DNA of 41,060 nt from a virus (Duplodnaviria > Heunggongvirae > Uroviricota > Caudoviricetes): IMG/VR virus record IMGVR_UViG_2534682139_000017. One strand, written 5' to 3'. Made by a program: the position numbers. Below are positions 9,001-12,000 of this stretch, piece after piece; positions within the stretch are counted from its first letter, which is position 1, and every line of letters begins with the position of its first letter.

Positions 9001-12000
9001 TGTTTTCCTGATCAAAGCTGCCACCAGCGAAGTGTGGTGGCCGGAAGATGCGGACCATATTGCTTTTATTCGCGGGCGTATTGGTTTTGAACTGCCTGCC
9101 TGGTTTATCCCGAAGGATGAGAAGCAGGTGCCGACAGGCGCTTTCTTCGCTGGTGCTATTGCTGTTTTCGACAAGACCTGGAAGGGACCGGCAATCAGCT
9201 ACATCGGGCGCGATGAACTTGAGGCATGTGGTGAGGCCTTTCTGGCGCAGGTTCGCCAGCAGGCGGAAAAACTGGTCAGGGAGATGGCGGCATGACGACG
9301 TTAACTCAATGCCAGCAGCAGGTGCTGGATATGCTGATTTCTTACCAGCAAGAACGTGGCTTTCCGCCAACCAATCAGGAGGTGGCAACCATGCTGGGAT
9401 ACCGTTCGGTGAATGCAGCGGTGGAGCATCTTCGCGCACTGGAGAAAAAAGGCGTCATCACGATAAAGCGTGGCGTGGCCCGGGGGATAACTCTTCATAC
9501 CGCGGTGAAGGACGACGACAGCGAGGCGGTCGGGATTATCCGCGCACTGCTTGCCGGTGAGGAAAACGCCAGGCTGCGTGCAGCCCACTGGTTACATGAG
9601 AGGGGCCTGAAAGTATGAAGCTGATCTTGCCTTTCCCTCCCAGCGTGAACACGTACTGGCGACACCCCAACAAAGGGGCGTTTGCTGGTAAGAGTCTGAT
9701 AAGCGCAGCGGGGCGCAAATTCCAGAGCGCGGCGTGCGCAGCAATAGTTGAGCAGTTACGTCGTCTGCCGAAACCAACGTCGGCACCTGCTTCAGTGGAG
9801 ATCGTGTTGTTTCCTCCGGATAACCGGATCCGCGATCTGGACAACTATAACAAGGCGCTGTTTGACGCCCTGACCCATGCGGGTGTGTGGGAAGACGACA
9901 GTCAGGTGAAAAGAATGCTGGTGGAGTGGGGACCGGTTATCCCGAAAGGGAAGGTCGAGATCACTATCAGTAAGTACGAGAAAACGGCGGGTGCAGCCGC
10001 CTGATCAAGAGGAGAAACGAAGTATGAATAATCTGATGGTCATTGATGGTATTGAAGTTCGTCGTGATGCTTATGGGCGTTACAGCCTGAACGATCTGCA
10101 TCGCGCAGCAGTAGCATCTGGTGCAAATGCCAGAACCAAGGAGCCGGGAAAGTTTCTTTCCAGCCAACAAACTGTTGAGCTTGTTCATGAATTGACCAAC
10201 ACCCAGAATTTGGGTGTTGACCCGGTGAGTGTGATTCATGGGGGAAATGAACGGGGAACGTATGTCTGCAAGGAACTGGTGTATGCCTATGCAATGTGGA
10301 TCAGCCCGTCATTCCATCTGAAGGTGATCCGTACTTTCGATATGGTAACCAGCGCACCGGAAAAATTATCCGGACAGGCTGCTGACAAGATGCAGGCTGG
10401 CGTGATCCTGCTGGACTTTATGCGCCGGGAGTTAAACCTGTCTAACTCTTCAGTGCTTGGTGCCTGTCAGAAACTCCAGGAGGCTGTTGGCTTACCGAAT
10501 CTGGCACCGCGCTATGCCATTGATGCTCCTGCTGATGCACACGATGGCTCAAGTCGCCCGACACTGTCACTGAGTGCACTGCTGAAACAGTATGGTATAC
10601 GCCTGACGGCTAATCAGGCATATCACCAGATGGTGAAACTGGGGATCGTCGAGCAGCGCGAACGATACAGCCGTACAGCGATTAACAACATCAAAAAATT
10701 CTGGTCGCTGACAGCGAAAGGTTGCATGTTCGGCAAGAACATCACCAGTCCCGCAAATCCGCGCGAGACGCAGCCGCATTTCTTCGAATCCCGATTCCCT
10801 GAGCTGTTAAAGCTGCTCGATACCGTTCATTGAGGTGACCGTGAGAGCACTACTGACCCCTGAAATTGCCCCGCGTATGGGGATCGTATTGTTCAGGCCA
10901 GGTTCAGAGCTGATGCCCCTGTTTATGCAGGGGCGTGTCCTGCTGGAGCCTGAGCCGGAGCGTTATTCATCTTTCGCCAGTGGTGCCGTTCCGGCGGCAT
11001 CACAACCGCTGGCGGATGATCCTGCCGTTCGGGCCGTGTTCCGCAATGAGGCAGTGATCCGTCGTGCTGGTGGCGTGGAATGTCTTGAAAGCTGGTTACT
11101 TCGTGAAAAAGGCTGCCAGTGGCCTCATTCCGACTGGCACAGCGAGAACATGACCACAATGCGACACGCTCCGGGTGCAATCCGTCTGTGCTGGCACTGC
11201 GATAACCAGCTGCGCGATCAGTTCACGGAACGGCTGGAATCAATGGCAACGGATAACTGTGCCCGCTGGGTGTTGTCTGTTGTGCGTCGGGATCTCGGTT
11301 TTGATGACAGTCACGTTGTGACAATGCCGGAACTGTGCTGGTGGCTGATTCGTAATGATCTGGCGGATGCCTTACCGGAAAGTGCAGCCCGTAAGGCACT
11401 GAGATTACCGAAGCCTGTTGTGCCGTCTGTTACCCGGGAAAGTGACCTTGTGCCTTCGGTTCCTGCCACCAGCATCATCCAGGATAAGGCGAAAAAGGTG
11501 CTGGCGCTGAAAGTGGATCCGGAGTCGCCGGAGTCTTTTATGTTACGCCCAAAACGTCGCCGCTGGGTTAATGAAAAGTACACGCGCTGGGTTAAGACAC
11601 AGCCGTGTGCATGTTGTGGAAAGCCAGCTGATGATCCGCATCATCTGATAGGCCATGGTCAGGGTGGAATGGGTACAAAAGCGCATGACCTTTTTGTGCT
11701 GCCTTTGTGCAGAAAACACCACGACGAACTGCATGCGGATACCGTGGCATTTGAAGAGAAGTATGGCTCCCAGCTGGAGCTGATATTTCGTTTTATCGAT
11801 CGCGCACTGGCGATTGGTGTGCTGGCCTGATTTTGTGGAGAAAGTTAATGTGTGATATTCAGATGGTTCTTGAACGTTGGGGAGCGTGGGCGGCTAATAA
11901 TCATGAAGATGTGACCTGGTCGTCCATTGCCGCCGGTTTTAAGGGATTAATTCCTTCAAAAGTAAAATCTCGCCCGCAATGTTGTGACGATGACGCGATG

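What the first reader, a model, noticed from the sequence alone, without database searches (positions are those of the whole stretch)
9292..9618. Stand-alone LexA DNA-binding domain without the autocleavage domain
The 108-aa protein aligns by eye to the LexA N-terminal winged-helix domain and stops before any S24 peptidase domain. Such a protein could bind SOS boxes without being inactivated by RecA, which would affect SOS induction and therefore prophage induction. It is translationally coupled between the Dam methyltransferase and RusA.
Basis: partly seen in the sequence, partly recalled or inferred. Interest (0 to 1): 0.5.

Follow-up and report, generated by a model that had tools for sequence, protein, structure and literature searches.

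The report
Phage-encoded LexA DNA-binding domain protein
A lambdoid prophage early gene encodes a copy of the SOS repressor LexA's DNA-binding domain with no self-cleaving half, so it is probably a damage-proof binder of LexA operators; the gene is common and already annotated, but nobody has tested what it does.

Summary
ORF 9292..9618 (+) encodes 108 aa. Residues 1-70 are a full LexA winged-helix domain: Pfam PF01726 E=2.6e-19, about 50% identity to E. coli LexA, and the model superposes on the LexA-DNA complex at 1.1 A. There is no S24 peptidase domain. ATGA overlaps join the gene to Dam upstream and RusA downstream.

A conserved two-helix tail (residues 75-103) replaces the cleavage/dimerisation domain. 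It is under purifying selection as strong as the DNA-binding domain.

The gene is not new. It occurs in 2233 of 5426 complete E. coli genomes and in Stx, SfII, SfV and cdtI phages, annotated as 'LexA family transcriptional regulator'. I found no functional study. The only characterised analogue is GIL01 gp6.

Four of the five LexA base-contact residues are kept (S39, N41, A42, E45); E44 is Val. The gene lies in the PR delayed-early operon, so it cannot prevent its own prophage's induction.

New lead: canonical SOS boxes are enriched around this gene (39/80 loci against 3/80 control loci). One is embedded in the cI reading frame (5735..5754).

Most likely role: a RecA-proof surrogate for LexA made during lytic growth. 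This is inferred, and DNA binding is untested.

The parts
9292..9618 (+). Gene for the 108-aa stand-alone LexA DNA-binding-domain protein (stop codon included)
   Evidence: ORF list and sequence. Pfam PF01726 E=2.6e-19. PHROG 362 'transcriptional repressor' E=2.6e-59, full length. dN/dS 0.05 and 0.20.
9307..9495 (+). Winged helix-turn-helix (residues 6-68: helices 6-22, 28-35, 40-52; strands 56-58, 66-68). The recognition helix carries S39, N41, A42, V44, E45; the wing carries R64, G65.
   Evidence: AlphaFold2 model. Foldseek against 3jso_B: rmsd 1.1 A, 50% identity. Alignment to E. coli LexA.
9514..9600 (+). Family-specific C-terminal two-helix tail (residues 75-88 and 93-103; motif EAVxIIRALLAGEENARxRAxxWLxxRG). 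Candidate dimerisation or partner-binding module that replaces the S24 domain.
   Evidence: Model pLDDT 87-89 in the tail. Conserved down to 40% identity across Enterobacteriaceae. Tail dN/dS 0.08 and 0.21, similar to the N-domain. The function is inferred.
9279..9295 (+). Translation start region: GGGAG Shine-Dalgarno (9279-9283), then the ATGA overlap of the Dam stop with the start codon (9292-9295)
   Evidence: Sequence
9615..9618 (+). ATGA overlap of the gene's stop codon with the RusA start codon
   Evidence: Sequence and ORF list
6061..12231 (+). Rightward early operon that carries the gene: cro-like, cII-like, ORF, O-like replication protein, PerC-like, Dam, LexA-DBD, RusA, KilA-N, DUF968/HNH, Q
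   Evidence: Contiguous or overlapping ORFs. Pfam assignments. SfII annotation of the 97-99% identical region. No + strand promoter-like site, and no + strand terminator-like site between 6100 and 11259.
5735..5754 (.). Candidate target: a canonical 20-bp SOS box (TACTGTTTTTATATACAGTA; reverse complement TACTGTATATAAAAACAGTA) embedded in codons 70-77 of the cI repressor gene (5271..5963, minus strand)
   Evidence: The only PSSM hit of 14 bits or more in the window: about 27-28 bits, against a maximum of 18.4 in 50 shuffles. Present in 27/27 cI homologues of about 70% identity or more, and in 80/80 cI loci fetched. CTGT/ACAG is invariant across 18 alleles, while the flanks and the encoded amino acids vary. 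The link to the LexA-DBD protein is inferred.

Best explanation
The gene encodes a RecA-insensitive surrogate of the host SOS repressor: a LexA winged-helix domain fused to a short two-helix tail in place of the S24 autocleavage/dimerisation domain. It is transcribed from PR as part of the delayed-early operon and is translationally coupled to its neighbours. It therefore accumulates only after infection or after cI has been inactivated. Inferred mechanism: the tail provides self-association, and the recognition helix (S39, N41, A42, E45) reads CTGT-type half-sites. The protein then occupies LexA operators when host LexA has been, or is being, destroyed. These operators would be host SOS boxes and the SOS boxes that many of these phages carry, here the one inside cI at 5735..5754. 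The result would be re-repression of SOS-controlled genes regardless of RecA*. Shown: domain identity, fold, absence of a cleavage apparatus, purifying selection, operon position, and enrichment of SOS boxes nearby. Inferred: DNA binding, dimerisation, operator specificity, and the physiological consequence.
For: Full-length LexA_DNA_bind match and 50% identity to the E. coli LexA N-domain. Model superposes on DNA-bound LexA at 1.1 A. Four of the five residues listed as DNA contacts are kept; S39, N41, K53, R64 and G65 are invariant across a family that reaches 40% identity. The recognition helix RSVNAAVEHLRAL is close to the E. coli LexA helix RSPNAAEEHLKAL, and the nearest cellular LexA N-domains (55-58% identity) are gamma- and beta-proteobacterial. 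The protein ends at residue 108. NCBIfam lexA scores 70 against a cutoff of 111 and covers only model positions 1-91 of 203. The Ala-Gly that aligns with the LexA cleavage site is not conserved, even among close relatives (LLANEEN, LLVGEEN). The free LexA N-domain is reported to keep some SOS-box binding and repression, which is why the cell removes it with ClpXP (PMC10584840). SOS boxes of 18 bits or more lie within +-10 kb in 39/80 loci carrying the gene, against 3/80 NinB-centred lambdoid control loci. Exact CTGT-N8-ACAG occurs in 47/80 against 9/80. Of 57 loci whose cI carries the embedded SOS box, 50 also carry this gene about 3.3 kb downstream. dN/dS is 0.05-0.2 in both the domain and the tail.
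Against: No binding data exist. I found no functional paper. LexA's operator spacing is set by its C-domain dimer, which is absent here, and whether the tail dimerises, and with what geometry, is unknown. Glu44 is never kept, and positions 42-45 vary in distant members. Identity to host LexA is only about 50%, so this is an old, diverged lineage that could have acquired its own operator. About half of the carrier loci have no SOS box nearby: 26 of the 56 loci covering at least 4 kb upstream and 6 kb downstream of the gene. Phage PhiR29_1, with an identical protein, has none in its whole genome. The SOS-box enrichment is dominated by two box classes in related mosaic phages, so the loci are not independent, and physical linkage by descent could explain it. 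The Enterobacter-type branch shows only weak enrichment (11/80; exact-pattern density near chance).
Confidence: 0.45

Rival explanations
1. It is a phage-specific transcription factor with an operator of its own, like GIL01 gp6. In this view a captured LexA DNA-binding domain has evolved a new specificity and activates or represses a phage promoter (late genes, a moron, or an accessory module), with no action on host SOS boxes.
For: The only characterised stand-alone LexA-DBD phage protein, gp6, binds its own palindrome and activates the late promoter P3 (PMC6182141). Only about 50% identity to host LexA. Glu44 is replaced throughout the family, and recognition-helix positions 42-45 vary in distant members. 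A different dimerisation module implies a different half-site spacing. The gene keeps a constant place upstream of DUF968 and Q in distant relatives.
Against: No conserved palindrome or CTGT-containing inverted repeat was found in the co-travelling nin/Q module. Late genes in these phages are controlled by Q antitermination (Phage_antitermQ). The base-contact residues S39, N41, A42 and E45 match the E. coli LexA recognition helix, and the nearest cellular LexA N-domains are gamma- and beta-proteobacterial. Canonical SOS boxes are enriched nearby.
Confidence: 0.3
2. It is a DNA-metabolism accessory rather than a transcription factor: a winged-helix protein that works with the neighbouring replication and recombination functions (O-like protein, Dam, RusA, DUF968/HNH), for example by marking or protecting particular DNA sites or structures.
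For: Translational coupling to Dam and RusA. It sits in the nin-type block of DNA-metabolism genes. There are weak profile hits to DnaD_N and replication-initiator wHTH families (E 0.02-0.1).
Against: Those hits are far below threshold and reflect the generic wHTH fold. Dam and RusA are not constant neighbours: SfIV has no Dam and a rusA pseudogene, and the Klebsiella phage has neither. The LexA-specific recognition residues are under strong constraint.
Confidence: 0.1
3. It acts mainly through protein-protein contacts made by the conserved tail (for example on RNA polymerase, host LexA, RecA or a phage partner), with the winged helix serving as a tether or being dispensable.
For: The tail is as constrained as the DNA-binding domain (dN/dS 0.08 and 0.21) and matches no known domain. 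In GIL01 a small phage protein, gp7, modulates LexA by direct contact.
Against: No partner is identifiable from sequence. A homodimerisation role explains the tail's conservation more simply. Host LexA dimerises and meets RecA through its C-domain, which this protein lacks.
Confidence: 0.1
4. It is a decaying remnant of a full-length LexA-like repressor and has no function.
For: Residues 84-90 (RALLAGE) align with the LexA cleavage-site region RVAAGEP, which hints at descent from a full-length LexA.
Against: Length and tail motif are conserved across at least nine enterobacterial genera down to 40% identity. dN/dS is 0.05-0.2. The gene is present and intact in 2223 genomes. RusA follows immediately, leaving no room for S24 remnants.
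Confidence: 0.02

Closest known systems
E. coli LexA N-terminal domain, and the LexA(1-84) fragment left after autocleavage
   Same: Same fold and about 50% sequence identity over residues 2-70. Same recognition-helix contacts S39, N41, A42 and E45, and the same wing R64-G65. Like the cleavage fragment, it is a LexA DNA-binding domain without the S24 domain. That fragment is reported to retain some SOS-box binding and repression (PMC10584840).
   Different: It is a separate, phage-borne gene and not a processing product. It carries a conserved 35-residue two-helix tail in place of the cleavage-exposed C-terminus. From my own knowledge, that exposed C-terminus is what targets the LexA fragment to ClpXP. 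Glu44 is Val and Arg28 is Asn. It fails the NCBIfam lexA equivalog cutoff (70 against 111 bits).
GIL01 gp6 (Bacillus thuringiensis tectivirus), a truncated LexA homologue that activates late promoter P3
   Same: A phage-encoded protein consisting essentially of the LexA winged-helix domain, made from the early operon and lacking the autocleavage domain (PMC6182141).
   Different: gp6 has no extra helical tail, belongs to a Gram-positive LexA lineage, recognises its own palindrome (GaCACAn nTGTGaC) and activates transcription. The enterobacterial protein keeps the E. coli LexA-type recognition residues, sits in a Q-antitermination phage, and has no identified site near a late promoter.
Non-cleavable LexA (Ind-) mutants such as S119A and G85D
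   Same: The predicted physiological effect is the same: LexA operators stay occupied despite activated RecA. Structures 1jhh and 1jhf are among the best fold matches.
   Different: Those are full-length dimers with native operator spacing and are made constitutively. This protein lacks the whole C-domain and is made only during phage development.
PHROG 362 / Pfam PF01726-only phage proteins ('LexA repressor DNA-binding domain-containing protein')
   Same: It is a member: PHROG 362 E=2.6e-59 over the full length. BFVD holds many 65-150 aa viral proteins of this fold, from Caudovirales, Tectiviridae and Mycobacterium phage Wildcat.
   Different: These are bioinformatic groupings with no tested function. 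The two-helix tail motif is specific to the enterobacterial branch.

Membership tests
LexA repressor (NCBIfam TIGR00498 equivalog; peptidase S24) | N-terminal LexA-type winged helix-turn-helix DNA-binding domain | tested here: met
   PF01726 E=2.6e-19, model positions 1-65 of 65. Rmsd 1.1 A to 3jso_B.
LexA repressor (NCBIfam TIGR00498 equivalog; peptidase S24) | C-terminal S24 peptidase/dimerisation domain with the Ser119-Lys156 catalytic dyad | tested here: not met
   The protein ends at residue 108. No Peptidase_S24 hit. The TIGR00498 match covers only positions 1-91 of 203. The next ORF is RusA.
LexA repressor (NCBIfam TIGR00498 equivalog; peptidase S24) | Conserved Ala-Gly autocleavage site in the linker | tested here: not met
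   A88-G89 aligns with LexA A84-G85. However, relatives have AN, VG, TR, SG, DD and others at that place, and the segment is modelled as a helix.
LexA repressor (NCBIfam TIGR00498 equivalog; peptidase S24) | Whole-protein score above the curated cutoff | tested here: not met
   70.3 bits against a cutoff of 110.95
LexA repressor (NCBIfam TIGR00498 equivalog; peptidase S24) | Binds the CTGT-N8-ACAG SOS box as a dimer | not testable with these tools
   Only indirect evidence: 4 of 5 contact residues are kept, and SOS boxes are enriched nearby.
Pfam LexA_DNA_bind (PF01726) / PHROG 362 stand-alone phage LexA-DBD proteins | Profile match above threshold over the full domain or full protein | tested here: met
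   PF01726 scores 69.2 bits against a cutoff of 23.7. phrog_362 E=2.6e-59, residues 1-108 against profile positions 1-106 of 106.
GIL01 gp6-type late-gene activators | Consists essentially of a LexA DNA-binding domain, phage-encoded, early-expressed | tested here: met
   This protein also has an additional 35-residue tail.
GIL01 gp6-type late-gene activators | Own palindromic site overlapping the -35 of the late promoter, giving direct activation | tested here: inconclusive
   No candidate palindrome in 8000-12500. Late control here is by a Q antiterminator. Binding cannot be tested.
GIL01 gp6-type late-gene activators | Direct sequence relatedness to gp6 and its key Lys38 | not tested
A Tectiviridae LexA-DBD protein appears in BFVD at 31% identity.

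The most novel reading that the evidence does not exclude
The uncleavable phage LexA paralogue and the SOS operator embedded in the cI reading frame form a second, RecA-proof layer of the lysis-lysogeny switch. Host LexA would occupy the intragenic operator in the lysogen. After induction or infection, the phage protein made from PR would replace it. It would then block re-synthesis of cI (or an intragenic promoter) and re-silence the host SOS regulon and LexA-controlled rival elements. That would commit the cell to lysis whatever happens to RecA*.
Probability: 0.2. Interest if true: 0.75.

Novelty: new member of a known kind. Interest (0 to 1): 0.42.

Why it matters
The gene is present in about 41% of complete E. 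coli genomes and in Shiga-toxin (Stx2a, Stx2c, Stx2k), cytolethal-distending-toxin and Shigella serotype-converting phages. If the protein occupies LexA operators irrespective of RecA*, these phages would rewrite the host DNA-damage response during lytic growth. That could affect SOS mutagenesis, filamentation, colicin release, induction of co-resident LexA-controlled prophages, and the timing of toxin release after SOS-inducing antibiotics. It would be the Gram-negative counterpart of the GIL01 gp6/gp7 interplay with LexA. The associated SOS operator inside the cI coding sequence appears to be under selection at the DNA level. Together, the two features give a concrete, testable link between host LexA, a phage LexA paralogue and the lysogeny repressor.

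Tried and rejected
1. Searched for a functional paper on the enterobacterial protein. I found only GIL01 gp6 and genome-annotation mentions. The LexA-DNA structure paper and Neher et al. 2003 are not held.

2. Searched for a phage-specific operator near the gene. Inverted repeats in 8000-12500 gave nothing containing CTGT and nothing notable. One-mismatch CTGT-N8-ACAG hits in the window are at the chance level (17 against 13.9 expected).

3. Looked for a promoter around the cI-embedded SOS box. The consensus scan found none. A relaxed scan gave only a weak arrangement, TTTACC-17-TACTGT, conserved in both lineages but confounded with coding constraint. The role of the box is left open.

4. Rejected 'Dam-LexA-RusA is the functional unit'. 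Distant and close relatives lack Dam or RusA.

5. Rejected trans-cleavage at the vestigial Ala-Gly, because the site is not conserved.

6. The scan of genome contigs mostly returned genuine lexA genes of other gamma- and beta-proteobacteria and only one family member, from Atlantibacter. It did not provide the independent-lineage test I wanted.

7. The Rfam scan found no known RNA near the gene or in cI.

I reran it without that sequence.

9. Dimerisation could not be modelled, because the structure tool predicts only single chains.
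Full report
**1. Observation**

Its ATG overlaps the stop codon of the upstream Dam gene (ATGA at 9292-9295). Its stop codon overlaps the ATG of the downstream rusA gene (ATGA at 9615-9618). A GGGAG Shine-Dalgarno lies 8 nt upstream of the start.

- Pfam assigns residues 1-65 to LexA_DNA_bind over the full model (E=2.6e-19) and finds no S24 peptidase domain.
- The neighbours are Dam (PF05869) and RusA (PF05866).
- NCBIfam's lexA equivalog matches only model positions 1-91 of 203 and scores 70 bits against a cutoff of 111.
- The best solved-structure relative is the E. coli LexA N-domain, E=6e-16 over residues 2-70.

**2. Fold and anatomy**

An AlphaFold2 model built on a 24-sequence family alignment has mean pLDDT 84. 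It shows three helices (6-22, 28-35, 40-52) and a two-strand wing (56-58, 66-68). After a lower-confidence linker come two further helices (75-88, 93-103).

Foldseek against the PDB puts E. coli LexA in its DNA complex first: 3jso_B, rmsd 1.1 A over 68 columns, 50% identity. Every other significant hit is also a LexA. The tail matches nothing.

HMMER aligns residues 84-90 (RALLAGE) with the LexA cleavage-site segment RVAAGEP. This suggests descent from a full-length LexA. But the Ala-Gly is not conserved, even among close relatives (LLANEEN, LLVGEEN), and it is absent in distant ones. The segment is also modelled as a helix. I therefore do not regard it as a cleavage site.

**3. A real, constrained family**

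Homologues of 105-135 aa with the same architecture occur in Escherichia, Shigella phages, Citrobacter, Salmonella, Hafnia, Cronobacter, Kosakonia, Enterobacter, Cedecea, Klebsiella and Atlantibacter. Identity falls to about 40%.

- Invariant or nearly invariant positions include Q8, P26, E30, G36, S39, N41, L50, K53, R64, G65 and I66.
- In the tail, the motif EAVxIIRALLAGEENARxRAxxWLxxRG is conserved.
- Pairwise dN/dS is 0.05 for 53 E. coli-type alleles (N-domain 0.03, tail 0.08).
- It is 0.20 for 64 Enterobacter-type alleles (N-domain 0.20, tail 0.21).

The tail is thus as constrained as the DNA-binding domain. The 'decaying remnant' reading is excluded.

**4. Genomic context and expression**

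The window is a lambdoid prophage whose early region is 97-100% identical to Shigella phage SfII and its relatives. The order of genes and features is:

- integrase, then leftward genes;
- cI (5271..5963, minus strand) and cro-like (6061);
- cII-like, then an O-like replication protein (7210);
- PerC-like (8148), then Dam (8609);
- LexA-DBD (9292), then RusA (9615);
- KilA-N (9991), then DUF968/HNH (10835);
- Q (11833), followed by a porin gene on the other strand.

From cro to Q the ORFs abut or overlap. The consensus scan finds no + strand promoter-like site, and no + strand terminator-like site between 6100 and 11259. The gene should therefore be a delayed-early product of PR, silent in the lysogen. 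This is inference from lambdoid gene organisation.

In relatives the constant feature is the position after the replication genes and before DUF968 and Q. Dam is not constant:

- mEp390 (47% identity): replication gene, LexA-DBD, RusA, DUF968, Q.
- A Klebsiella phage: DinI, ORF, LexA-DBD, small ORF, DUF968, Q.
- SfIV: PerC-like, LexA-DBD, then a rusA pseudogene.

**5. State of knowledge**

The 327-bp gene is found at 95% identity or more in 2233 of 5426 complete E. coli genomes. PGAP names it 'LexA family transcriptional regulator' or 'LexA family protein'.

tblastn finds relatives in 63 phage records, 50 of them at 95% DNA identity or more. These include Stx2a, Stx2c and Stx2k phages, SfII, SfIV, SfV (orf42), cdtI, mEp460 and Ayreon. 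Annotations range from 'LexA DNA binding domain protein' to the erroneous 'RecA-mediated autopeptidases'. PHROG 362 ('transcriptional repressor') matches over the full length. BFVD contains many 65-150 aa viral LexA-DBD-only proteins.

The architecture is therefore already catalogued. Seven literature searches found no functional work on the enterobacterial protein. The one characterised analogue is GIL01 gp6, a truncated LexA homologue that binds its own palindrome and activates the late promoter.

**6. Specificity**

The residues listed as DNA-contacting in E. coli LexA are Ser39, Asn41, Ala42, Glu44 and Glu45 (PMC3091678). The window protein has S39, N41, A42, V44 and E45, plus the wing R64-G65.

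Across the family, S39 and N41 are invariant. Position 44 is never Glu. E45 is usually kept, but one Enterobacter-type sub-branch has Ala.

The recognition helix RSVNAAVEHLRAL is close to the E. coli LexA helix RSPNAAEEHLKAL. The nearest cellular LexA N-domains (55-58% identity) are from Halomonas, Oceanospirillales and Burkholderiales. A CTGT-type half-site is therefore plausible.

What cannot be judged is spacing. In LexA the C-domain dimer sets it, and here a different module must do so.

**7. An unexpected association with SOS boxes**

I built a PSSM from E. coli SOS boxes that I recalled from memory (caveat). It gives exactly one strong hit in the 41-kb window: 5735..5754, TACTGTTTTTATATACAGTA, about 27-28 bits. 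The maximum in 50 shuffles was 18.4. The reverse complement, TACTGTATATAAAAACAGTA, is what I remember as the umuDC operator.

The hit lies inside cI, in codons 70-77 of the linker between the HTH and S24 domains.

- It is present in all 27 cI homologues of about 70% identity or more that I saw, and in 80/80 loci fetched with this cI.
- Across 18 distinct alleles the CTGT and ACAG positions never vary, and only 4 of the 20 box positions vary.
- Adjacent 20-nt windows vary at 9-16 positions.
- The encoded residues change non-conservatively (Tyr/Cys, Lys/Ile/Leu) while the DNA stays SOS-box-like.

This points to selection on the DNA and not on the protein.

More broadly, boxes of 18 bits or more occur within +-10 kb of the gene in 39 of 80 IMG/VR loci (45 boxes). 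They occur in 3 of 80 lambdoid control loci centred on NinB. The memory-free pattern CTGT-N8-ACAG gives 47/80 against 9/80.

- A second recurrent box (TACTGTAAAAATAAACAGTG, 22 loci) lies in codons 3-9 of a DNA methylase gene downstream of Q.
- SfIV has a box just upstream of its KilA-N gene.
- Of 57 cI-with-box loci long enough to judge, 50 carry the LexA-DBD gene.

Caveats:

- The loci are related mosaics and not independent samples.
- Two box classes dominate.
- About half of the carrier loci have no box. PhiR29_1, with an identical protein, has none in its whole genome.
- The Enterobacter-type branch shows only 11/80 loci with a box, nine of them the cI-embedded one.
- In that branch the E45A sub-branch has 0/16 with an upstream box against 10/52 for the rest (p=0.10). 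This is suggestive only.

**8. Mechanism**

The best-supported reading (confidence 0.45) is a RecA-proof surrogate for LexA. It would be made from PR after induction or infection and dimerise through its tail. It would then occupy LexA operators on the host chromosome and on the phage once host LexA has been cleaved. This would shorten or cancel the SOS response during lytic growth.

The reading is consistent with reports that the free LexA N-domain retains some operator binding and repression, which is why cells remove it with ClpXP (PMC10584840).

Because the gene is under cI control, it cannot stop its own prophage from inducing. Its effects would come afterwards, and on other LexA-controlled elements.

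Rivals:

- a gp6-like regulator with its own operator (0.30);
- a DNA-metabolism accessory working with Dam, RusA and the replication proteins (0.10);
- action mainly through tail-mediated protein contacts (0.10);
- a non-functional remnant (0.02).

**9. Comparison and membership**

The protein works like, and is homologous to, the LexA DNA-binding domain. It is not a LexA: it has no S24 domain, no conserved cleavage site, and it scores below the equivalog cutoff. It is a member of PF01726 and PHROG 362. It resembles gp6 in architecture, but it carries an extra tail and keeps the E. coli LexA-type contact residues.

**10. Verdict**

This is a new, uncharacterised member of a known kind that is already annotated in databases.

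Interest is moderate. The gene is very common in pathogenic E. coli prophages. Together with the cI-embedded SOS operator, it offers a testable hypothesis about phage control of the SOS response. Nothing about its activity has been shown.

Noticed in passing
window 5735-5754 (inside cI, 5271-5963 minus strand): A perfect 20-bp SOS box (reverse complement TACTGTATATAAAAACAGTA) is embedded in codons 70-77 of the cI repressor gene. It is the only strong LexA-box hit in the window. It is conserved in every cI homologue of about 70% identity or more, CTGT/ACAG are invariant, and the encoded amino acids change non-conservatively, which points to selection on the DNA. Its role is unknown; candidates are a roadblock, an intragenic promoter, or antisense control.
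   Followed up: partly
L014:14086-14105; L010 (phage cdtI) 44083-44102; L009 (Stx2c_EH0430) 17658-17677: A second recurrent SOS box, TACTGTAAAAATAAACAGTG, lies in codons 3-9 of a DNA methylase gene (DPPY motif) downstream of Q. It occurs in 22 of the 80 loci that carry the LexA-DBD gene and in 1 of 80 control loci.
   Followed up: partly
L007 (phage SfIV) 8199-8760: In SfIV the rusA gene downstream of the LexA-DBD gene carries an in-frame stop, so it is a pseudogene. A strong SOS box (TACTGTATTTATGAACAGTA, 24.6 bits) lies in the roughly 150-bp spacer just upstream of the KilA-N gene. This suggests a LexA-controlled antirepressor-like gene.
   Followed up: partly
L010 (phage cdtI) 26720-26767: Two strong SOS boxes 28 bp apart (23.3 and 23.4 bits) lie between divergent small ORFs orf30 and orf31, next to the cdt toxin genes and the integrase.
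   Followed up: no
L005 (Klebsiella phage ST846-OXA48phi9.1) 3994-4013: An SOS box (23.2 bits) lies just upstream of a divergent two-gene cassette placed after Q. The same phage has a DinI-like gene two genes before its LexA-DBD homologue.
   Followed up: no
window 9541-9561 (residues 84-90, RALLAGE): This segment aligns with the LexA autocleavage-site region RVAAGEP, so it is a possible vestige of a full-length ancestor. The Ala-Gly is not conserved in relatives.
   Followed up: partly
proteins P0128, P0135, P0141, P0144, P0148, P0156, P0159, P0163: Representative-library hits of 140-350 aa contain two LexA DNA-binding-domain stretches in tandem. These would be single-chain 'pseudo-dimers' of the LexA winged helix.
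   Followed up: no
proteins P0023, P0092, P0098: Some database entries fuse a Dam C-terminal part (PF05869) to the LexA-DBD in one 179-185 aa protein. These are presumably frameshifts or miscalls at the ATGA overlap.
   Followed up: no
window 7210-8151: The O-like replication protein has a low-complexity repeat region (SDSDPSKSDASKSDPSKFDASKS). Several overlapping repeat-derived ORFs lie on both strands, as expected if origin iterons are located inside the gene.
   Followed up: no
window 12421-13518 (minus strand): A 365-aa OmpC/NmpC-type porin gene lies directly after Q on the opposite strand. It is annotated OmpD in the near-identical phage PhiR29_1.
   Followed up: no
window 8148-8642: A 164-aa protein with a PerC transcriptional-activator domain (PF06069, E=8e-9) lies immediately upstream of Dam. 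PerC/Pch-type proteins regulate virulence genes in EPEC and EHEC (my own knowledge).
   Followed up: no
window 40140-40338 (+): This is the only Rfam match in the window: IS009 (RF02111), 224 bits, near the tail-fibre assembly region.
   Followed up: no
window 4172-4951 (+): A 259-aa ORF with CxxC...CxxC motifs lies between cI and the leftward operon and is followed by a terminator-like hairpin at 4990-5009. PhiR29_1 annotates a hypothetical protein at the equivalent place.
   Followed up: no
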